Positions 4,926 to 31,253 of a DNA stretch of 64,000 nucleotides are shown piece by piece (the first letter of the stretch is position 1; each line of letters begins with the position of its first letter). A program made the translations under genes and the position numbers. Origin of the DNA: Calditrichia bacterium. Its GTDB lineage: Bacteria; Calditrichota; Calditrichia; RBG-13-44-9; J075. The DNA lies in contig JBOEGD010000030.1 in NCBI GenBank assembly GCA_050633245.1, positions 64,001 through 128,000 on the forward strand, read 5' to 3'. The notes below the pieces were generated by a model. That model saw nothing but the letters and a program-made list of their open reading frames with translations, was not told the DNA's origin and did no database searches.

Positions 4926-6218
4926 ATGATGAGTCGCCTGAAACAAGCAGAAATGATGGAAAAAGATTGGAAAGAGAACAAACGTTGGGCGGGAATTAAA
5001 CGCTCTTACACTGCCGAAGAAGTAACAAAAATGCAGGGATCAGTCGTGTTGGAATATACGCTGGGGCAGCTTGGAGCAAAGCGCCTATGGGATCTTATGC
5101 ACAGCGAAGACTTTGTGAATTCGCTCGGTGCGCTAACCGGCAACCAGGCCGTCGAGCAAATCCAGGCCGGGTTAAAAGCCATATACCTGAGTGGATGGCA
5201 AGTTGCTGCTGACGCAAACCATGCCGGAATTATGTATCCCGATCAGAGCCTTTATCCTGCAGACAGCGTGCCGGGCGTTGTGCGTAAGATTAACAACGCT
5301 CTGATGCGCGCAGATCAAATTGATCACATGAACGGCAATACCGATATTCACTGGTTGGCTCCAATCGTTGCCGATGCCGAAGCCGGATTTGGTGGCGCTC
5401 TAAACGCATTCGAACTCATGCGCGCCATGATCGAATCTGGTGCTGCCGGAGTTCACTTTGAAGATCAGCTGGCCTCCGCTAAAAAATGCGGCCACATGGG
5501 TGGAAAAGTTTTAGTACCTACCGATGAGTTTGTTCGCAAGCTAATCGCGGCGCGTCTGGCAAGCGATGTCATGGGTGTACCGACCGTCCTATTGGCAAGA
5601 ACAGATGCATTTAGCGCCACGCTTATTACCAGCGATGTAGATGAATACGATCATCAATTTATCGATTATGATGCAGAACGTACTATCGAAGGGTTTTATC
5701 GCCTTAAAGGCGGCCTAGATCGCGCAATTGCTCGTGGTCTTGCCTACGCGCCATATTGCGACGTTATCTGGTGCGAGACAGCAACACCCGATCTGGATGA
5801 TGCTCGAACGTTCGCCGAAGCAATCCACGATAAATTCCCAGGTAAACTTCTTGCATATAATTGCTCTCCATCTTTCAACTGGAAGCGCCATCTGGATGAA
5901 GCGACCATCGGAAAGTTCCAGCGTGAACTTGGCGCCATGGGATACAAATTCCAGTTCGTAACGCTGGCCGGATTCCATACGCTGAATACAAGTATGTTTG
6001 AGTTAGCTCTGGGCTATCGTGATAAAGGAATGGCTGCTTATTCGAAGCTACAGGAAAGAGAATTCGAGCTGGAACGCGATCATGGTTTTCGCGCTGTGAA
6101 GCATCAAAGTTTTGTAGGTGCAGGGTATTTTGATGAGATTCAGAATATCATTACCGGTGGAGCCGCATCAACCCGGGCACTGGAAGGCTCTACCGAAGAA
6201 GAGCAGTTTCACGACTAA
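4926..6218 (+). CDS. aceA: Isocitrate lyase
   Basis: [36 protein letters not shown]; RBS AAGGAGGT. Confidence 0.98.
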
Positions 6219-6299
6219 GTAACTCACAAACTATAGATATCACTTGAACGCAGCTTATTGCCAATTCAGGTGGTATCTACTCCCAAAACAATTTTGAGC

Positions 6300-6334
6300 A
6301 AAAAAAAACACGGCAGGCCAAAGACCTGCCGTGT
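6300..6334 (-). terminator. Intrinsic terminator
   Basis: 10-bp stem acacggcagg/cctgccgtgt followed by a U-run on the minus strand. Confidence 0.8.
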
Positions 6335-6455
6335 AACCCAAATAACCAAAACAAAGGAGAGAGAAGACTCACCTTCTTATGAGAATATACACCGTGAACT
6401 TACGTTACCATGTGATACCCTGCACAAAAAGTTTACTTTCTCCCCCTTGCAACCC
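6300..6455 (-). ncRNA. Candidate trans-acting small RNA
   Basis: Minus-strand promoter TTGTAA-17-TATCTT (6489-6461), GU-rich single-stranded tract, intrinsic terminator acacggcagg/cctgccgtgt plus U-run; no credible ORF. Confidence 0.55.
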
Positions 6456-6565
6456 AACTAAAGATACATCATTTTTTTTCTATTTACAATCCACAACATA
6501 TAATTCTTCAAAAAACGCTCATCAGGCGTTATCTTTGCCCCTGTAAACCACAAAGAAACAGCATG

Positions 6566-8266
6566 TTAGCGATTTTCAATCACAATTTTGAACGGACGCA
6601 CCTGATTTCGACCATTTTCTTTTGCAGCGTAAAGGGCACTGTCAGCAAACCGAATCAGCTCTTCGGAATGCAGAGAATCGTTGGGGAAATTGGCAACGCC
6701 AATTGATATCGTCACCTTTTTATGAGGCAGCTGTTCTTCCTGAGGGAAAGGCGAGGTGGCAATAATATTGCATATTTTTTCTGCAAGCCGGATACCGCCG
6801 GCTTTATCAAGCTCAGTGCATATTATTACGAATTCTTCGCCCCCGTAGCGAGCGACAATATCACTACTTCGCGTATTTTCCAGCAATAAGCGAGCAACCT
6901 TACGCAATACAACATCACCGGCCTGATGGCCAAATGTATCGTTATATACTTTAAAAAAATCGATATCCAGCATCAGCAAACAGAAGTTGGTTTGATTGCG
7001 TTCAGAACGACTGACTTCACGTAAAAGCTGTTGATGAAAATAGCGATAGTTATACAAACTGGTAAGATGATCGGTTATAGCATCTTTTTCGGCGCGAAGA
7101 AATAGTTCCGTAAGCTGCTGACGAAGCTGAAGGTTTTGATGTGCAAGACTGGCTGCATTTATCAACATCTCCAGCAGTTTTACATCGTAAGGGGTGATTC
7201 TTCCGCTTATCGGTCGATCGATATAGAGAAATCCACCAAAATAAAACATCTCCGAACTCAAGTATTCATGCAGCTGACTTCGCACCATTTCAATATCCCG
7301 CTCAGACTGATGATTAAGTCCCGGTAAAAGCGCATCAAGCTGACGGCGAATATTTGTCGTCCCCGGAAGAGCGTCTCCGGCGGGCATCGATGTGCCCAAT
7401 ATCCCGAATAAAAACTGAGTTGCGCTTATCTCGTCTAAAATGCGATTGAAGTTGTCATCTTTAACTTTTCTGGAGCTGCTTATATAAAGCAGTGGTTTCC
7501 GCGAAAACAGACTTTGCACGAGTGTCGCATGGTAGGGCAATCGAATTTTCGACGCTTCGATATCGCTGAAGCCCGTAGAATAGGTTACACCAATTTGCAT
7601 AGACTCGTGGTTCACCTCTAAAAATGCGCAGCGCTGAAAATTGAAGTGGCTACTTATTTGCTCAACCAGCTGATGTTTTACCTCTTCCGGCGAGGTACAA
7701 AGCTGAAGGCCAGCAATAATATGCAGTAAACTTTCCAGCTTACCCGAGTAATTACGCAGCTTATGCGTGCTGTCCTTCAACAAATAGTTTGCCGTCTGAA
7801 GCTGCTTGATTTTATCGGTAAGATGATTAATGAGTGTTCGCTGATACTCTTTTTTATAGAACGCTCGGGACTCTTCATCAAGCACTTCGCGTTTTCCTGC
7901 TAAAAATTCGCTGATCTGCCGGGAAAAATTTTTCGTATCGATTGGCTTGGTAATATAGCCATCACACCCTGCAGTTAGAGACAGCTCCCTGGCATGAGAC
8001 TCACGCGTTGCTGTCAGGGCGATAATAATGGTTTTAGAGAGCTCGGGAAGGGTTTTTAATTGAGTGGCAAGATCAATACCGCGCATATCCGGTAGGTTCA
8101 AATCCATCAGGATTAAATCAGGAATAATTTCCTGTGCCTTTTGCAGGCCACTCATTCCATCTGGCGCTTCGAAGCAGTCAAATGGAGAGTTATCCAAAAC
8201 TTTTGCTATCAACATTCGAGATGCGTGATCATCTTCCACATATAAAACTTTTGGCGCATTTACCAT
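6566..8266 (-). CDS. Response-regulator diguanylate cyclase (REC, degenerate GAF-like region, GGDEF)
   Basis: YVEDD..LMDLNLP..KP receiver; DIDFFK, RSSD I-site, RYGGEEF. Confidence 0.92.
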   Translation of the reverse strand: MVNAPKVLYVEDDHASRMLIAKVLDNSPFDCFEAPDGMSGLQKAQEIIPDLILMDLNLPDMRGIDLATQLKTLPELSKTIIIALTATRESHARELSLTAGCDGYITKPIDTKNFSRQISEFLAGKREVLDEESRAFYKKEYQRTLINHLTDKIKQLQTANYLLKDSTHKLRNYSGKLESLLHIIAGLQLCTSPEEVKHQLVEQISSHFNFQRCAFLEVNHESMQIGVTYSTGFSDIEASKIRLPYHATLVQSLFSRKPLLYISSSRKVKDDNFNRILDEISATQFLFGILGTSMPAGDALPGTTNIRRQLDALLPGLNHQSERDIEMVRSQLHEYLSSEMFYFGGFLYIDRPISGRITPYDVKLLEMLINAASLAHQNLQLRQQLTELFLRAEKDAITDHLTSLYNYRYFHQQLLREVSRSERNQTNFCLLMLDIDFFKVYNDTFGHQAGDVVLRKVARLLLENTRSSDIVARYGGEEFVIICTELDKAGGIRLAEKICNIIATSPFPQEEQLPHKKVTISIGVANFPNDSLHSEELIRFADSALYAAKENGRNQVRPFKIVIENR

Positions 8267-14647: not shown

Positions 14648-15316
14648 CTAAACCGCCTCAACAAAGTTCAGTAAATGTCCTGACTTTTTTGCTTTTGTCT
14701 GTAAATATCCGCGATTAATGTCATTTGGTTCAATCTGCAGTGGAATGCGTTTACTGACATCAATACCAAATTCTTCCAATCCACGAATCTTATTGACGTT
14801 ATTTGTCAGAAGCTGTACAGAGTTTACGCCTAATGTTTTCAACATCTCGGCAGCAACATCATAGCGACGCAAATCATCTGGAAATCCCAAAAGATGGTTT
14901 GCCTCAACCGTATCATATCCTTCTTCTTGAAGAGCATAGGCACGAATCTTATTTCCAAGACCAATACCGCGACCTTCCTGTCGCATGTAAAGCACGATTC
15001 CACAATCACTATGATTGATATAGTTTAAACCTGCTTCGAGCTGTTCACGACAATCACACTTCAATGATCCGAGCACTTCACTCGTTAAGCACTCAGAATG
15101 AACACGAACCGGAACATTCTCACCATTGCTTATATCACCCTTCACAATCGCCAAGTGTTCCTTGTGGTCCAGCGTATTGCGAAAAACATAGACATCAAAA
15201 GCACCATGGGTTGTTGGCAGCTTTGTCTGGGCATAAATCCAGACGTTTTTCAAATTCTCTTTAATCACAGCGTACTCCGATCTGGCATGAGTCAAACAAC
15301 CAAAGTCCTCATGCAT
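14648..15316 (-). CDS. ribA: GTP cyclohydrolase II
   Basis: VRVHSECLTSEVLGSLKCDC, QEGRGIGLGNKIRAY, YLQTK..GHLL. Confidence 0.95.
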   Translation of the reverse strand: MHEDFGCLTHARSEYAVIKENLKNVWIYAQTKLPTTHGAFDVYVFRNTLDHKEHLAIVKGDISNGENVPVRVHSECLTSEVLGSLKCDCREQLEAGLNYINHSDCGIVLYMRQEGRGIGLGNKIRAYALQEEGYDTVEANHLLGFPDDLRRYDVAAEMLKTLGVNSVQLLTNNVNKIRGLEEFGIDVSKRIPLQIEPNDINRGYLQTKAKKSGHLLNFVEAV

Positions 15317-15456: not shown

Positions 15457-15619
15457 TACATACCAAAGGCCGACGGTGGAGTGTCGACCTCTGGCTTAAG
15501 CATTGGGGGAACAGGTTGGATATGTTGGAAGGCTTTATTAAGGAACAAGTTCCTTTGTTTAGATTATTTGGGTCAATTTTTATTTTTGTTATCCACATGA
15601 GCGTTTTGAACGTTTTCTT
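15457..15619 (-). ncRNA. Candidate ncRNA or long ribA leader
   Basis: Promoter TTGACA-17-TATTAT just upstream; 12-bp hairpin 15463-15494 that pairs through G-U only on the minus strand; 23-nt near-complement of the 6.3-kb sRNA at 15551-15573. Confidence 0.4.
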
Positions 15620-18637: not shown

Positions 18638-18995
18638 GGCACTCTCATATGTTGGTTATTTTATAGTAATTCTTTTCAAGTCACCCTATACCCGCGCCTG
18701 AGCGCGCCTAATCTTTCCCAAAATGCAATCGAAATTAAATCATTTTTAAATGACTTGCTACTGTTTTTTAAGACATTGAATGTAATTGGACGAACGAATG
18801 CCTTGCTGGAAGTTCACGCATTCTTTTTGGGAGAGAACAAAAACATTGTCATGATAAAAGTGTTAATACAATATTAGATCTACGTCTTTAACAAACGGAG
18901 AAAGTTTTTTGCAGAATCTTAAAGGTGGAGGTTTTTAAGAAAAAATTCAAAATTCTTTACTGATTAACAGAATATAGAGTACCCGTCTAGCTCAC

Positions 18996-20760: not shown

Positions 20761-20949
20761 GGCGTCAGTTGGGTTTAGTGAAACTTCGATGATTTTGTTT
20801 ATTCACTTATATCGGCAGAATTTAATTCTACTTTTCCCGACAAATCGCCTGTTCCCGTAAAAAGATAAGGTACATCTTTGCTTTTTCAAAACGTGAAAGG
20901 CTTTTGCCTAAAATTCGATAAGACCCCTAAGAGTTCTCAAGTAATCTAC

Positions 20950-21170: not shown

Positions 21171-24100
21171 TTATTTGGACAACACCATTTTTCGGGAGGA
21201 TACAAATGAGCCTGCATTTATTTGATAGAAATAAACACCCGACGGGAACTGTGCAGCATTAAAGTCCAGTGTGTAAGCACCAGCACTCTGACGCTCACTT
21301 ACCAGGGTTGCTACTTTCTGTCCGGCAATGTTGAAGATAGTAACAGTTACGTCGCTTGATTGCGGAATAGAGTAGCGGATCGTAGTCGTCGGGTTGAACG
21401 GATTCGGATAGTTCTGCTCAAGCTCGAAGTTATTGATCGTTCCATCGAGCAGATCATCCTCAATACCTACGATTGGCGAGAACTCTACTACATCGCCATT
21501 TGGCAGTGCAGCAAAGAGTCCAAAAGCAGGACCGTTCTGGTTTGCTGAAGGCGTTAGGAAGCCAGAGGCAAAAACCTGAGCGGCTCCACCGGCAAGACCG
21601 GAAAGGTCAGCAGTAAAAGAAGCCACTACGGTTGAACCACTCGCATCCGTTACATCGAGTGTGTATGAAGCAGCAGGGACGCCAACATATCCCGTAATGT
21701 CACCATATGCCGCGTCGTCTACCAAGGTTGCAACACCGCGCGCAACGACGTCGACAGTTGGTGCATCGGAGGAGCCATGCAGCGCAGAGAACTCAACTGT
21801 ATTAACATCAGTAGAAGCTTCTTGACCTGTTGGATTGATGAACAGACCGAAAGCAGTACTTCGTCCATCCGGGTTCGGAGCAAATGCACTCGGATCGAGA
21901 ACACCATTGGCAATAACCACATAGGTCTCACCAGGAGTCAGAGTTACATTGAAATTAGCTAATGTATCACCAACACCACCGCTATTCGGACCGGCAACAC
22001 CAATGTCAATCGGCGTGCCCGCAGGTGCATCAATAAATGCAGTGGCATCACGGAAGGCAAAATCATCAAGAAGAATTCCACCGTTAAGATAAATATCAAC
22101 AACTGCTGCGCCAGGATCAGCGGCATTGTGAATGACTTGAACACGCGCTGTGTTGATCGCAGGAAATTCTACGATGTCACCCGTTGGTAAGGCTGCGAAT
22201 AAACCGAAAGCTGCGCCATTTTGATTTGCTGAAGGATCTAAAAATCCGGAAGCGAAAACAGTAGCGGCTCCGCCGGCGAGTCCCGAAAGATCAGCGGCGA
22301 AGGATGCGACCGTTACTGCTCCGCTTCCATCTTTTACGTCTAATGTATATGCTGCAGGGGGAACACCAATATAGCCGGTGATGTCACCATATGCTGCGTT
22401 GTCTACCAGTGTCGCAACACCCCGCGCATCAACATCAACAGTCGGCGCATCGGAAGAACCATGAACAGCAGCGAATTCAACGGTTGCCGGATCGCTGGAA
22501 GCTTCCTGGCCAACCGGATTAATAAATAAACCAAAAGCAGTGCTACGGCCATCAGGGTTCGGAGCAAAAGCTGTTGGATCGAGAACACCATTGGCAATGA
22601 TTACATACGTTTCACCAGCTGTAAGCGTCGCAGTAAAGTTCGCAAGCGTATCGCCTACACCGCCACTGTTAGGGCCAGCAACACCAATATCAAGCGGCGT
22701 GCCCGCAGGAGCATCAATAAATGCTGTTGCATCGCGGAAAGCAAAGTCGTCTAGAAGAAGTCCGCCGTTTAGGTAGACATCGACAATCGCTGCTGCCGGG
22801 TCGGCTGCATTGTGAATAACTTGAACACGGGCGGTTGTGATTGCCGGGAACTCTACAACATCACCTGTAGGTAAGGCTGCAAATAGCCCGAAAGCTGCAC
22901 CGTTTTGATTTGCTGAAGGATCCAGAAAACCGGAGGCGAACACCTGGGCTGCCCCGCCGGCAAGTCCGGAAAGGTCAGCTGCAAAGGACGCTACGGTTAC
23001 AGTACCTGTTGCATCTTTTACATCAAGCGTATAAGCTGCTGGTGGGACACCAACGTAACCGGTAATGTCGCCATAAGCTGCATCATTTACCAGAGTAGCA
23101 ACGCCGCGGGCATCGACATCAACTGTGGGCGCATCGGAAGAGCCATGTAAGGCAGAAAACTCAACCGTCGCTGGATCGGTGGATGCTTCCTGACCGAGTG
23201 GGTTTACGAACAGGGTAAAAGCAGTACTACGACCATCAGGGTTCGGCGCGAAAGCTGTTGGATCAAGAACACCGTTGGCGACAACAACGTAGGTCTCACC
23301 TGGTGTCAAAGTCACATTAAAGTTAGCAAGCGTATCGCCTACGCCACCACTATTCGGGCCAGCGACACCTATATCAATTGGTGTACCTGCAGGCGCATCG
23401 ATAAATGAAGTAGCATCGCGGAAAGCAAAATCATCAAGAAGAAGACCGCCATTGAGATACACATCCACAAGCGCAGCGCCTGGATCAGCCGCATTGTGAA
23501 TTACCTGGACTCGAGCAGTATTCGCTGCAGCACTTCCTTTATGAATAACGTGATCGACCCACAAATTGTCTGATGAGCTTCCTGAAGGACCTCCATCAGT
23601 TATGTAATAATTGATGGCGACGAATGGCTCGCTACCGGCAAATGCAGACATATCAAACGCATAACGATTCCAGGAACTAACAGGGCCATCGACTTTAAAG
23701 TAGCCAACAAGGTCTGTAAAGCTACCAAGTGAACTGTCGGTAGTCGAAACCCAAACACGAAGCGAATCAGGAAAATTACCATCGATTGCGCCAGCATAAA
23801 AGATTAGACTATCACCAGACTCAACGGCCGGTAATTGAGGTGAGATGATATATTCATCAATCAGAAACCCATTCGCATTATTAAAGCTGCTGAAAAAGAA
23901 ACTTTGTCCGGCTTCCGGGAAAATAGAATCACCGCTGAGAAAACCGACATCTTGACGAAATTCCCATCCGGCACCACTGCCGTCGTTATCAATCAACTGC
24001 CAACCGGCGGGCAGCGTAGTGGTATCAAATGTTTCTTCAAACTTAACGTTTTTCTCAGCAGCAACTTCCTGATTGCCGGGAACACCGCGCTCAAATTCAG

Positions 24101-24200
24101 TCGCGCGAATGCGATCTACAATTTCATCCTGCGCCAATAACGACATTGGCAGAACAAAAGCTGCAATCAGCAAACCTCGTAGTAAAACAGTAAACTTCAT
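21171..24200 (-). CDS. Secreted protein: cleaved-adhesin/choice-of-anchor J-like domain, three tandem DUF4397 repeat units, T9SS-type sorting domain
   Basis: Signal peptide from MKFTVLL after GGAGG RBS; LPAGWQLIDNDG..DEYIISP; 3x ARVQVIHNAADP...HGSSDAPTVDV; QNYPNPFNP. Confidence 0.88.
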   Translation of the reverse strand: MKFTVLLRGLLIAAFVLPMSLLAQDEIVDRIRATEFERGVPGNQEVAAEKNVKFEETFDTTTLPAGWQLIDNDGSGAGWEFRQDVGFLSGDSIFPEAGQSFFFSSFNNANGFLIDEYIISPQLPAVESGDSLIFYAGAIDGNFPDSLRVWVSTTDSSLGSFTDLVGYFKVDGPVSSWNRYAFDMSAFAGSEPFVAINYYITDGGPSGSSSDNLWVDHVIHKGSAAANTARVQVIHNAADPGAALVDVYLNGGLLLDDFAFRDATSFIDAPAGTPIDIGVAGPNSGGVGDTLANFNVTLTPGETYVVVANGVLDPTAFAPNPDGRSTAFTLFVNPLGQEASTDPATVEFSALHGSSDAPTVDVDARGVATLVNDAAYGDITGYVGVPPAAYTLDVKDATGTVTVASFAADLSGLAGGAAQVFASGFLDPSANQNGAAFGLFAALPTGDVVEFPAITTARVQVIHNAADPAAAIVDVYLNGGLLLDDFAFRDATAFIDAPAGTPLDIGVAGPNSGGVGDTLANFTATLTAGETYVIIANGVLDPTAFAPNPDGRSTAFGLFINPVGQEASSDPATVEFAAVHGSSDAPTVDVDARGVATLVDNAAYGDITGYIGVPPAAYTLDVKDGSGAVTVASFAADLSGLAGGAATVFASGFLDPSANQNGAAFGLFAALPTGDIVEFPAINTARVQVIHNAADPGAAVVDIYLNGGILLDDFAFRDATAFIDAPAGTPIDIGVAGPNSGGVGDTLANFNVTLTPGETYVVIANGVLDPSAFAPNPDGRSTAFGLFINPTGQEASTDVNTVEFSALHGSSDAPTVDVVARGVATLVDDAAYGDITGYVGVPAASYTLDVTDASGSTVVASFTADLSGLAGGAAQVFASGFLTPSANQNGPAFGLFAALPNGDVVEFSPIVGIEDDLLDGTINNFELEQNYPNPFNPTTTIRYSIPQSSDVTVTIFNIAGQKVATLVSERQSAGAYTLDFNAAQFPSGVYFYQINAGSFVSSRKMVLSK
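21470..23520 (-). repeat. Three intragenic tandem repeats, 684-bp (228-aa) period
   Basis: gcattgtgaa at 23491, 22807 and 22123; near-identical protein units with many synonymous DNA differences. Confidence 0.9.
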
Positions 24201-24331
24201 AGAAGCCTCCAGATAAGATAGGGTTTTGGTTATTTGGGTTACACTTAAATTATCATACATACGTTGACTGCCTTGGGTTGAAGCAGACTTCGCTAAATAG
24301 TCAATTCGAAACCGCTTATGCCCGTTTTAAT

Positions 24332-24348
24332 ATCAAAGGTTGTGCCAA
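24332..24348 (-). promoter_or_regulatory. sigma54 -24/-12 promoter (GA at -12)
   Basis: TTGGCACAACCTTTGAT on minus strand. Confidence 0.7.
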
Positions 24349-24436
24349 CGACAAAAGGGGGACAAGCAAACCCATGCTAAATAGACACTTAGAACAAAAA
24401 AGGCGAGATGGGCCGAGTTAAGAGGATCTGCTGAAA

Positions 24437-24470
24437 TGCAAAATTTGCAGCAGTGATTGCAGAATTTGCG
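24437..24470. promoter_or_regulatory. Candidate bEBP enhancer pair
   Basis: TGCAAAATTTGCA and TGCAGAATTTGCG, 21 bp apart, about 116-149 nt upstream of the predicted start site. Confidence 0.6.
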
Positions 24471-24498
24471 AACGATAAGCGTTTTGCGCGTTCAGCAA

Positions 24499-25269
24499 TT
24501 AGAAGCGGATTGTAAGGCCAACTGAAGAAGTGGAGAGATTGGGCTGGATTGAGATAGATTCATCTTTAATCTGACTAAAGAATATTGCATCAATATGAGA
24601 ACTTAGCCATACGGATGCCAGGGCGTAGCCCCAGTAAAACTGACGCTGATATGAGTCATTGTATGTGTTGTAGCGAGATTCAAGAAGAGCGCGATCCGTT
24701 TCATTGATATACTCGTCGAAGCGGGTTTGTGTATTCAAGATAGACTGCCCGGTGCCGGTAATAGAAATTACTCCCATTGTAGCCCAGACAATGCCTTTAA
24801 TCTTATAGCCTCGGCGATATTGTTCCCAACCGGGAAAAACCAATGACCGCCAGGGTCGATTCTCTTTTTCAAAAGCCATTGCTGCTTCAATTGCGCTAAG
24901 GCGTTGTTGGATAGCAACAGCATAGTCCAGCTTAGCTTGTTGAAATACAAGTAAGATTTTGGGTGAAGTCGTTAATCGATCCAGCTCGATCGTCGGGTCG
25001 ATATCAAGCATCTGCCTGAAATAACTACGCGCAACTTCACTGTCATCGTTTTGGATGCGCTGAAAAGCACCGTAGCGATATATCTCTACCTGTACATCAG
25101 CCGGGTATTTTTGCGGTTGTTCGAAAGCTTTTTCGAGCAGACTATCTAATGCACTATAGTTGAAATTGTCGTAGGCAGATTTTAGCTCATCAGCCAGGCT
25201 TGATGACTGGCTAAAAACCGGAGCCACGAGAACAGACAGGAAAAGCGCTATGGTGAGTTTTTCTATCAT
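24499..25269 (-). CDS. Exported protein, TPR-like N-terminus and DUF5683-like membrane C-terminus
   Basis: Signal peptide; A.SYFRQML.IDP...SPKI; WRSLVFPGWEQY...KG; ends VGLTIRF. Confidence 0.7.
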   Translation of the reverse strand: MIEKLTIALFLSVLVAPVFSQSSSLADELKSAYDNFNYSALDSLLEKAFEQPQKYPADVQVEIYRYGAFQRIQNDDSEVARSYFRQMLDIDPTIELDRLTTSPKILLVFQQAKLDYAVAIQQRLSAIEAAMAFEKENRPWRSLVFPGWEQYRRGYKIKGIVWATMGVISITGTGQSILNTQTRFDEYINETDRALLESRYNTYNDSYQRQFYWGYALASVWLSSHIDAIFFSQIKDESISIQPNLSTSSVGLTIRF

Positions 25270-31212: not shown

Positions 31213-31253
31213 CTGGTACTTTCAAAATGGATTGTTTTTTGGGTTTTCGGGTA

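What the first reader, a model, noticed from the sequence alone, without database searches (positions are those of the whole stretch)
6300..6489. Candidate trans-acting sRNA with a perfect 22-nt target 18 kb away
Seen: a minus-strand unit with promoter TTGTAA-17-TATCTT, an anti-SD-like CUCUCCUU, a GU-rich tract and a strong terminator. Its segment GUUUUGGUUAUUUGGGUUACAC (6352-6331) is the exact complement of the leader of the DUF4397 secreted-protein mRNA (24244-24223, GUGUAACCCAAAUAACCAAAAC), 12 nt upstream of that gene's GGAGG RBS, which the CUCC could also pair. Shorter complements lie just before other starts: gcvP (10 nt, 18652-18661), phrB (11/12, 31234-31245) and the beta-propeller gene (7 nt, 20769-20775); these short ones could be chance. 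Inference: a multi-target translational repressor, GcvB-like in style, that I do not recognise as a described family.
Basis: partly seen in the sequence, partly recalled or inferred. Interest (0 to 1): 0.8.

Follow-up and report, generated by a model that had tools for sequence, protein, structure and literature searches.

The report
Conserved small RNA matching an adhesin leader
An intergenic stretch in a probable Calditrichota bacterium looks like a real, strongly conserved small regulatory RNA gene whose exposed 22-letter stretch is the exact mirror of the leader of a secreted adhesin-like protein's message, but nobody has yet shown that it is made or what it does.

Summary
The 22-mer at 6331-6352 (-) has one exact inverted partner at 24223-24244. 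These are the only two copies in the 6.35-Mb genome (BLAST E 1e-4).

The locus has the anatomy of an sRNA gene:
- A promoter-like TTGTAA-17-TATCTT fits this organism's own tRNA promoter pattern.
- A long 5' hairpin is followed by a 16-nt unpaired GU-rich seed and a 12-bp terminator (z -7).

Two metagenome relatives are syntenic. Their flanking genes are only 45-50% identical at third codon positions, yet they keep 75 of 76 bases of 6377-6302. L116 also keeps both promoter hexamers and has 4 compensatory pairs.

In one closer relative (run X2, about 91% identity) the target 22-mer is intact while 8 changes fall around it.

Not supported: a multi-target, GcvB-like regulon, any Rfam family, Hfq or ProQ.

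Not tested: expression, the target's transcription start, and the direction of regulation.

Verdict: a probable new sRNA family of a narrow clade with one convincing target. Confidence 0.55, interest moderate.

The parts
6461..6489 (-). Promoter-like TTGTAA-N17-TATCTT
   Evidence: Read. It fits TTGnnn-N16-18-TAnnTT, which is found upstream of 19 of 35 tRNA genes of this genome (shuffles mean 1.6, max 7). Both hexamers are identical in L116, while 5 of the 29 positions from the first hexamer to the second, all in the spacer, differ. The pattern alone occurs 0.41 times per kb in the window.
6300..6454 (-). Predicted sRNA of about 155 nt (start inferred, not mapped)
   Evidence: The start is inferred as about 7 nt after the -10-like hexamer. 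The 3' end is the U-run of the terminator. MFE is -62.6 kcal/mol, z -7.05, and 0 of 200 shuffles fold as well.
6351..6450 (-). Long 5' hairpin; GCAAGGGGGAGA pairs with UCUCUCUCCUUUGU
   Evidence: RNAalifold consensus of window and L116 gives 47 pairs, 4 of them with both sides changed and the pair kept, all in the apical stem.
6335..6350 (-). Unpaired GU-rich seed UUUUGGUUAUUUGGGU
   Evidence: Unpaired in both the MFE and the consensus structure. Invariant in window, L116 and L117.
6331..6352 (-). The 22-mer complementary to the target leader
6299..6334 (-). Intrinsic terminator (12-bp stem, loop of 3, U9)
   Evidence: The stem is identical in all three sequences; one loop base differs in L116.
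6302..6377 (-). Ultra-conserved block, 75 of 76 columns invariant in three lineages
   Evidence: Flanking intergenic DNA is 31-52% identical. Third codon positions of the neighbouring genes are 45-50% identical.
24223..24244 (-). Target site in the leader of the DUF4397/T9SS gene, -44 to -23 from the ATG
   Evidence: It is intact in the X2 contig (about 91% identity), whereas 8 differences lie at 24211-24217 and 24247-24260. The leader is not more structured than shuffles (z +0.58).
21171..24200 (-). Target gene: 1009-aa secreted protein
   Evidence: Pfam: DUF4397 (6 stretches), Cleaved_Adhesin and Por_Secre_tail. The signal peptide is read. GGAGG lies at 24210-24206.
15551..15573 (-). Second, imperfect complement (21/23 identity; marginal)
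   Evidence: blastn-short E 1.7 genome-wide. It lies downstream of TTGACA-17-TATTAT (11 of 12) in the long leader of a GTP cyclohydrolase II gene. Not shown to be more than chance.

Best explanation
The region 6454-6300 on the minus strand is probably a gene for a small regulatory RNA of about 155 nt. It is restricted to a narrow clade of a probable Calditrichota lineage.

Inferred mechanism:
1. The RNA is transcribed from its own TTGTAA-17-TATCTT promoter and ends at a strong intrinsic terminator.
2. It folds into a long 5' hairpin, leaving a 16-nt GU-rich stretch unpaired just before the terminator.
3. That stretch nucleates a perfect 22-bp duplex with the C/A-rich, unstructured leader of the mRNA for a type-IX-secreted, adhesin-like DUF4397 protein. 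The site is at -44 to -23 from the start codon.
4. The most likely outcome is lower expression. This could happen by masking a C/A-rich enhancer or ribosome standby region, or because a 22-bp perfect duplex is a substrate for RNase III, which the genome encodes.

Shown here: the sequence match, conservation, the predicted fold, and conservation of the target site in one relative. Inferred: transcription, pairing in vivo, and the direction and mechanism of regulation.
For: - The 22-mer pair is unique in the genome and beyond chance.
- The terminator is strong.
- The fold is far more stable than shuffles and leaves the seed unpaired.
- There are 4 compensatory pairs between window and L116.
- Two metagenome relatives (L116, L117) are syntenic at about 74% nucleotide identity. 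They keep 75 of 76 bases of 6377-6302, and L116 keeps both promoter hexamers. Third codon positions of the flanking genes are only 45-50% identical.
- The promoter fits the genome's own tRNA promoter pattern.
- The locus lies between convergent gene ends, so there is no downstream gene to lead into.
- The target 22-mer is intact in the X2 contig, with 8 differences in the 60 nt before the ATG, all of them outside it.
- The target leader is unstructured.
- This organism uses SD sequences, and an RNase III gene is present.
Against: - No expression data. No RNA run holding the stretch was listed, and the one read-laying run went to DNA contigs.
- The target's transcription start is unknown. No TTGnnn-N16-18-TAnnTT pattern occurs in the 300 nt before its ATG, so part of the site might lie outside the mRNA.
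- The metagenome scan found the exact 22-mer only at the two sRNA loci, not at any target-like locus, although L117 comes from a 408-kb contig. The perfect match may therefore be confined to closer relatives, while the seed is conserved more widely for another reason. How much of that contig is stored is unknown.
- For X1 and X7, private differences were not listed, so only X2 counts.
- The site is upstream of the usual ribosome-occlusion window.
- Hfq and ProQ were not found (genome 97% complete).
- The one syntenic family relative (G004) has only an 85-nt spacer with a terminator.
- The covariance model found no homologue in the 36 other genomes of the order.
Confidence: 0.55

Rival explanations
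1. It is a real sRNA, but the DUF4397 leader is not its main or a functional target. The seed would be conserved for other targets or for a protein partner, and the 22-nt match would be a lineage-specific by-product, for example a short copied segment.
For: The seed and the whole 76-nt block, terminator stem included, are invariant in relatives at about 74% identity. The exact complement was not found at any target-like locus in the metagenome collection. Invariance of the terminator stem goes beyond what base pairing to one target needs.
Against: A chance 22-mer is very unlikely (E 1e-4). The site is placed in a leader, on the sense strand, 12 nt before the SD. It is kept in X2 while its flanks change. 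No other target class stands out.
Confidence: 0.2
2. It is the 3' untranslated region of the response-regulator diguanylate cyclase mRNA (6566-8266, minus strand). In this reading the conserved structure and terminator act in cis on that mRNA, or an sRNA is cut from it, and there is no promoter of its own.
For: It lies directly 3' of that gene on the same strand. Only a weak hairpin-plus-T-run (about 6527-6505) separates them, and the terminator scan does not call it.
Against: Promoter-like hexamers that fit the organism's pattern are conserved in L116, while the 76 nt between the stop codon and the -35 hexamer are only 52% identical. A 3'UTR-derived sRNA would still act in trans through the same seed, so this rival changes the biogenesis more than the function.
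Confidence: 0.12
3. The conserved block is not an RNA regulator. It would encode a small hydrophobic peptide (GTG ORF 6372-6277, 31 aa) or be a DNA-level site, such as a protein-binding or recombination site, that happens to occur twice.
For: The ORF exists. The two 22-mers are inverted copies 18 kb apart.
Against: There is no synonymous change in about 25 codons, where neighbouring genes are 45-50% identical at third positions. The ORF runs through the terminator, and its start abuts the SD-like AGG with no spacing. L116 is colinear with window 12678-4469 across the locus, so there is no island or insertion boundary there. Pfam named no recombinase among the 7 ORFs scanned of the 9 ORFs of 100 aa or more between the copies.
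Confidence: 0.05

Closest known systems
GcvB (Rfam RF00022), enterobacterial Hfq-dependent sRNA
   Same: A G/U-rich single-stranded seed that would pair with a C/A-rich stretch upstream of the SD of a target mRNA, followed by a terminator. The description of GcvB is recalled knowledge, not from a call.
   Different: No Rfam match at gathering score in the window, and none to GcvB at E up to 10 in 6150-6650. No Hfq gene was found. It is not next to a gcvA-type regulator. No regulon signal. The pairing is 22 perfect base pairs rather than a short imperfect seed.
Cis-encoded antisense RNAs and other RNase III-dependent perfect duplexes
   Same: Long perfect complementarity (22 bp) of the kind RNase III can cut. 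An RNase III gene is present. The length RNase III needs is recalled.
   Different: It is encoded 18 kb from its target rather than opposite it. Only 22 nt match, and nothing beyond.
Hfq-independent sRNAs of the Bacteroidota/FCB group (for example GibS of Bacteroides; recalled)
   Same: The related superphylum lacks Hfq. The sRNA stands alone with a single-stranded seed and a terminator.
   Different: No sequence or Rfam relationship. This organism uses SD sequences, unlike typical Bacteroidia (recalled).
CsrB/RsmZ-type CsrA-sponging RNAs
   Same: The genome encodes CsrA, and the RNA is structured.
   Different: There is only one GGA-containing stretch (GGGGGAGAA) and no array of GGA loops. 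This was considered and rejected.

Membership tests
Trans-acting base-pairing sRNA (general class) | Discrete transcript with its own start and end | tested here: inconclusive
   A promoter-like motif fits the genome's tRNA promoter pattern and is conserved in L116. The terminator is strong. No RNA data were seen.
Trans-acting base-pairing sRNA (general class) | Conserved, accessible seed | tested here: met
   The 16-nt unpaired stretch 6350-6335 is invariant in 3 of 3 sequences.
Trans-acting base-pairing sRNA (general class) | Complementarity to an mRNA encoded elsewhere, near its translation start | tested here: met
   22 of 22 nt at -44 to -23 of the DUF4397 gene, 18 kb away.
Trans-acting base-pairing sRNA (general class) | Seed and target site conserved together in relatives | tested here: inconclusive
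Relatives at 74% identity keep the seed, but their target loci could not be fetched.
Trans-acting base-pairing sRNA (general class) | Regulatory effect on the target | not testable with these tools
   This needs reporter or knock-out experiments.
GcvB (RF00022) | Match to the Rfam covariance model | tested here: not met
   0 matches at gathering score in the window. GcvB is not among the 4 sub-threshold matches in 6150-6650.
GcvB (RF00022) | Hfq-dependent, many C/A-rich targets | tested here: not met
   Hfq PF17209 was not found. Leaders show no excess of anti-seed k-mers or duplex energies over shuffles.
Cis-antisense RNA | Encoded on the opposite strand of its target locus | tested here: not met
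   The loci are 17.9 kb apart.
CsrA-sponging RNA | Several GGA motifs in loops | tested here: not met
   The sequence and fold show one GGA-containing stretch, and it is paired.
3'UTR-derived sRNA | Lies in the 3' region of an mRNA and shares its terminator | tested here: inconclusive
   The position fits. A conserved promoter-like motif argues for independent transcription. Processing cannot be tested here.

The most novel reading that the evidence does not exclude
In a phylum without Hfq or ProQ, a trans-encoded sRNA silences a single type-IX-secreted adhesin-like gene through a perfect 22-bp, antisense-grade duplex at or near the mRNA's 5' end. The duplex would be cut by RNase III. The 76-nt invariance, terminator stem included, would reflect an as yet unknown RNA-binding partner that reads the seed-terminator module. 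The gene's position beside a response-regulator diguanylate cyclase would tie it to a surface-attachment switch.
Probability: 0.2. Interest if true: 0.65.

Novelty: new member of a known kind. Interest (0 to 1): 0.5.

Why it matters
Regulatory RNAs are essentially undescribed in Calditrichota. A full-text search for 'Caldithrix' with 'small RNA' gave 3 papers, and none is on this subject judging by title and abstract start in the listing.

This candidate comes with a specific, testable target: a type-IX-secretion cargo with adhesin and DUF4397 domains. It also shows an unusual mode for a trans-encoded sRNA, namely 22 perfect base pairs in an organism where no Hfq or ProQ gene was found.

If confirmed, it would give an entry point to post-transcriptional control in this lineage. 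It would also be a natural example of how a trans sRNA and its target acquire extended complementarity.

Tried and rejected
- Dispersed repeat: rejected. There are only 2 copies in the genome at up to 3 mismatches.
- Mobile element or island ends: rejected. L116 is colinear across the locus, and Pfam named no recombinase among the 7 ORFs scanned of the 9 ORFs of 100 aa or more between the copies.
- Rfam: 0 matches at gathering score in 64 kb. The sub-threshold rows (L20_leader 25.4 bits against 58.7, RsaE 25.2 against 79) are taken as chance or terminator-driven.
- Family relatives: a DNA search in 40 other genomes gave only two short matches of 27-34 nt, in G008 and G020. By their coordinates these fall on the terminator and U-run.
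- GGDEF orthologues were found in 9 of 15 family genomes. Only G004 keeps the convergent isocitrate lyase neighbour, and its spacer is 85 nt without the element.
- Covariance model R1, built from 2 sequences: no homologue in the 36 other genomes of the order. The best hit scores 26.6 bits and is terminator-driven.
- Genome-contig scan for the 22-mer: 0 matches.
- Regulon prediction with RNAduplex on 5,011 crude leaders: the real seed gives a minimum of -37.5 and 6 leaders at or below -30. Of 4 shuffled seeds, 2 gave minima of -36.0 and -37.9 with 7 leaders each at or below -30. The method therefore does not discriminate.
- Anti-seed k-mers in leaders: for k=10, 10 against 11.3 +/- 3.7 in shuffles. 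For k=11, 5 against 2.4 +/- 1.3.
- Core 9-mers are 2-3 times more often in leaders than the leader share of the genome, but leaders are A/C-rich anyway.
- CsrA sponge: rejected.
- Small ORF: rejected (see rival explanations).
- RNA runs: no RNA holder was listed.
- Read laying: X6 laid nothing. X1 and X7 cover the site, but their private differences were cut from the table.
- Papers were seen only as search listings; none was read. Supplementary files were not consulted.
- The Calditrichota placement rests on the best named matches of two proteins (isocitrate lyase 74%, part of RpoB 72%). It is an inference.

Full report
**1. The observation**

The 22-mer occurs at 6331-6352 on the minus strand and at 24223-24244 on the plus strand. 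There is no further match in the window at up to 3 mismatches, and 0 of 100 shuffles gave two matches.

In the whole genome (6,345,459 bases, 59 contigs, 97% complete) these are the only two places at up to 3 mismatches. It is therefore not a dispersed repeat. blastn-short puts the match at E = 1.1e-4.

On the minus strand the second copy lies 12 nt before GGAGG. That in turn precedes an ATG at 24200, which opens a clear signal peptide. The ORF lister's earlier ATG at 24260 is not the likely start.

**2. Setting**

The 347-nt spacer 6219-6565 lies between two convergent gene ends. One is an isocitrate lyase (4926-6218, plus strand). The other is a response-regulator diguanylate cyclase (6566-8266, minus strand). 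Nothing lies downstream on the minus strand, so the element cannot be a leader.

The target gene encodes a 1009-aa protein with a Cleaved_Adhesin domain, six DUF4397 stretches and a type-IX-secretion C-terminal sorting domain.

The organism uses Shine-Dalgarno sequences: GGAG and related motifs peak at -14 to -8 in 3,089 crude ORFs. The best named matches of isocitrate lyase (74%) and part of RpoB (72%) are Calditrichaeota MAGs. I take it as a probable Calditrichota member, by inference.

Hfq and ProQ were not found. CsrA and RNase III are present.

**3. Anatomy**

- The terminator scan finds one site: 6334-6308, 12 pairs, 8 of them G-C, loop of 3, then T9.
- The generic sigma-70 scan finds no promoter. 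However, 19 of 35 tRNA genes of this genome carry TTGnnn-N16-18-TAnnTT upstream (shuffles mean 1.6, max 7), mostly with TATATT as the second hexamer. TTGTAA-17-TATCTT fits that pattern. On its own the pattern is common, at 0.41 per kb.
- Folding 6456-6298 gives -62.6 kcal/mol, z = -7.05, and 0 of 200 shuffles fold as well. The structure is a long 5' hairpin (6450-6351), then an unpaired UUUUGGUUAUUUGGGU (6350-6335), then the terminator.
- In the hairpin GCAAGGGGGAGA pairs with UCUCUCUCCUUUGU.

**4. Conservation**

The genus has only this genome among the species representatives. A DNA search of 40 other genomes found nothing beyond two short matches of 27-34 nt that, by their coordinates, fall on the terminator and U-run.

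Among the 9 of 15 family genomes with an orthologue of the cyclase, only G004 keeps the convergent isocitrate lyase neighbour. Its spacer is 85 nt with a terminator only.

A scan of metagenome contigs for the exact 22-mer found two contigs, L116 and L117. Both are colinear with the sRNA locus at about 74% nucleotide identity.

In the three-way alignment, 75 of the 76 columns of 6377-6302 are invariant. The exception is one base in the terminator loop.

Identity of the window to the two contigs, by segment (the first three segments are not held in L117):

| Segment | Window vs L116 | Window vs L117 |
|---|---|---|
| Stop codon to -35 hexamer | 52% | not held |
| -35 to -10 hexamer (both hexamers identical) | 83% | not held |
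| 5' part of the RNA | 71% | not held |
| 6391-6300 | 95% | 96% |
| Immediately downstream | 31% | 37% |

The neighbouring genes are 84-91% identical in protein but only 45-50% at third codon positions. The block is therefore under nucleotide-level selection. This also argues against the 31-codon GTG ORF that overlaps it.

Between window and L116, four pairs of the apical stem changed on both sides and stayed paired. That is only two sequences, so it is modest evidence.

A covariance model built from these two sequences found no homologue in the 36 other genomes of the order.

**5. The target site in relatives**

Reads were laid on 23700-24800, with contigs of four runs.

The X2 contig (3,462 nt) covers 23890-24800 with 84 other letters and 5 gaps, about 91% identity. 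The table kept 40 rows. All 40 are X2 differences, in ascending order from 23921 to 24260. I therefore read X2's differences as completely listed up to 24260.

In the 60 nt before the ATG, X2's differences are at 24211, 24216, 24217, 24255, 24258, 24259 and 24260, plus a deletion at 24247. None lies in 24218-24246.

If 8 changes fell at random in 60 nt, missing a given 22-mer has a probability of about 0.03. That figure is my own arithmetic. It is suggestive rather than strong.

X1 and X7 also cover the site, but their private differences were not listed. X6 laid nothing.

That X2 carries the seed is inferred from the seed's invariance in more distant relatives.

Against the pairing hypothesis, the exact 22-mer was found at no target-like locus in the metagenome collection, although L117 belongs to a 408-kb contig. 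I could not fetch more of that contig and do not know how much of it is stored.

**6. Other targets**

I also found a 21/23 match at 15551-15573. It lies in the long leader of a GTP cyclohydrolase II gene, behind an 11-of-12 promoter. Its BLAST E is 1.7 genome-wide.

Neither RNAduplex energies nor anti-seed k-mer counts over 5,011 crude leaders exceed shuffled seeds. A regulon is not shown.

The leader of the G011 orthologue of the target is also C/A-rich, with ACCAATAACCAAAAACC-like repeats. C/A-rich leaders may therefore be an older feature of this gene.

**7. Mechanism**

The target leader is no more structured than shuffles, so the site should be accessible. The duplex lies at -44 to -23, upstream of the region a bound ribosome covers (recalled knowledge).

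The likely modes are masking of a C/A-rich enhancer or standby site, or RNase III cleavage of the 22-bp duplex. Both are inferences. Activation cannot be excluded.

**8. Comparison and novelty**

There is no Rfam family. It works like a base-pairing sRNA with a GU-rich seed, GcvB-like in style only, and it fails the GcvB membership tests.

It is best filed as a new sRNA family of a known kind, in a phylum for which my search found no sRNA literature (listing only).

Confidence that it is a real conserved RNA element is about 0.9. Confidence that it regulates the DUF4397 gene by pairing is about 0.55.

Noticed in passing
window 15551-15573 (minus strand), promoter 15654-15626: A 21/23 complement to the same seed sits in a roughly 300-nt leader between an 11-of-12 TTGACA-17-TATTAT promoter and a GTP cyclohydrolase II gene (14648-15316). 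No FMN riboswitch or other Rfam family was found there. The covariance model gives a weak plus-strand hit at 15535-15589 (14.7 bits, E 0.66).
   Followed up: partly
window 24437-24451; L007, L009, L010, L022, L024: An A/T-rich palindrome TGCAAATTTTGCA-like motif recurs 200-300 nt upstream of DUF4397 genes in 5 of the 10 loci searched, from 4 family genomes. In L007 it looks like a hairpin followed by a T-run, so it is probably the upstream gene's terminator rather than an operator.
   Followed up: partly
L008 1280-1365 (G011): The leader of the G011 orthologue of the target is a run of C/A-rich repeats (ACCAATAACCAAAAACC, AACCAAACCAAAGGAG) right up to the SD.
   Followed up: no
whole genome G000, tRNA upstream regions: Promoters upstream of tRNA genes follow TTGnnn-N16-18-TATATT, often extended to TATATTTG. 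This is a hybrid of the sigma-70 -10 box and the Bacteroidota-type TAnnTTTG box (the Bacteroidota motif is recalled).
   Followed up: partly
L112-L114 (G015, G013, G010), downstream of the GGDEF orthologue: Tandem short repeats of the type TAATGCGTAA / ACGCAATACGCAAT follow the stop codon in the three g11 genomes.
   Followed up: no
window 24326-24416: In the X7 contig 89 bases are replaced by 90 unrelated letters, and the X1 contig diverges after 24353. The region upstream of about 24326 is thus a variable spacer, while 24108-24326 is kept.
   Followed up: no
run list: The runs that hold parts of this stretch are labelled coral metagenome, marine metagenome and two coded host organisms. This hints at a marine, possibly host-associated habitat. 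Shares are 0.05-0.25, and only X1, X2 and X7 were laid.
   Followed up: no
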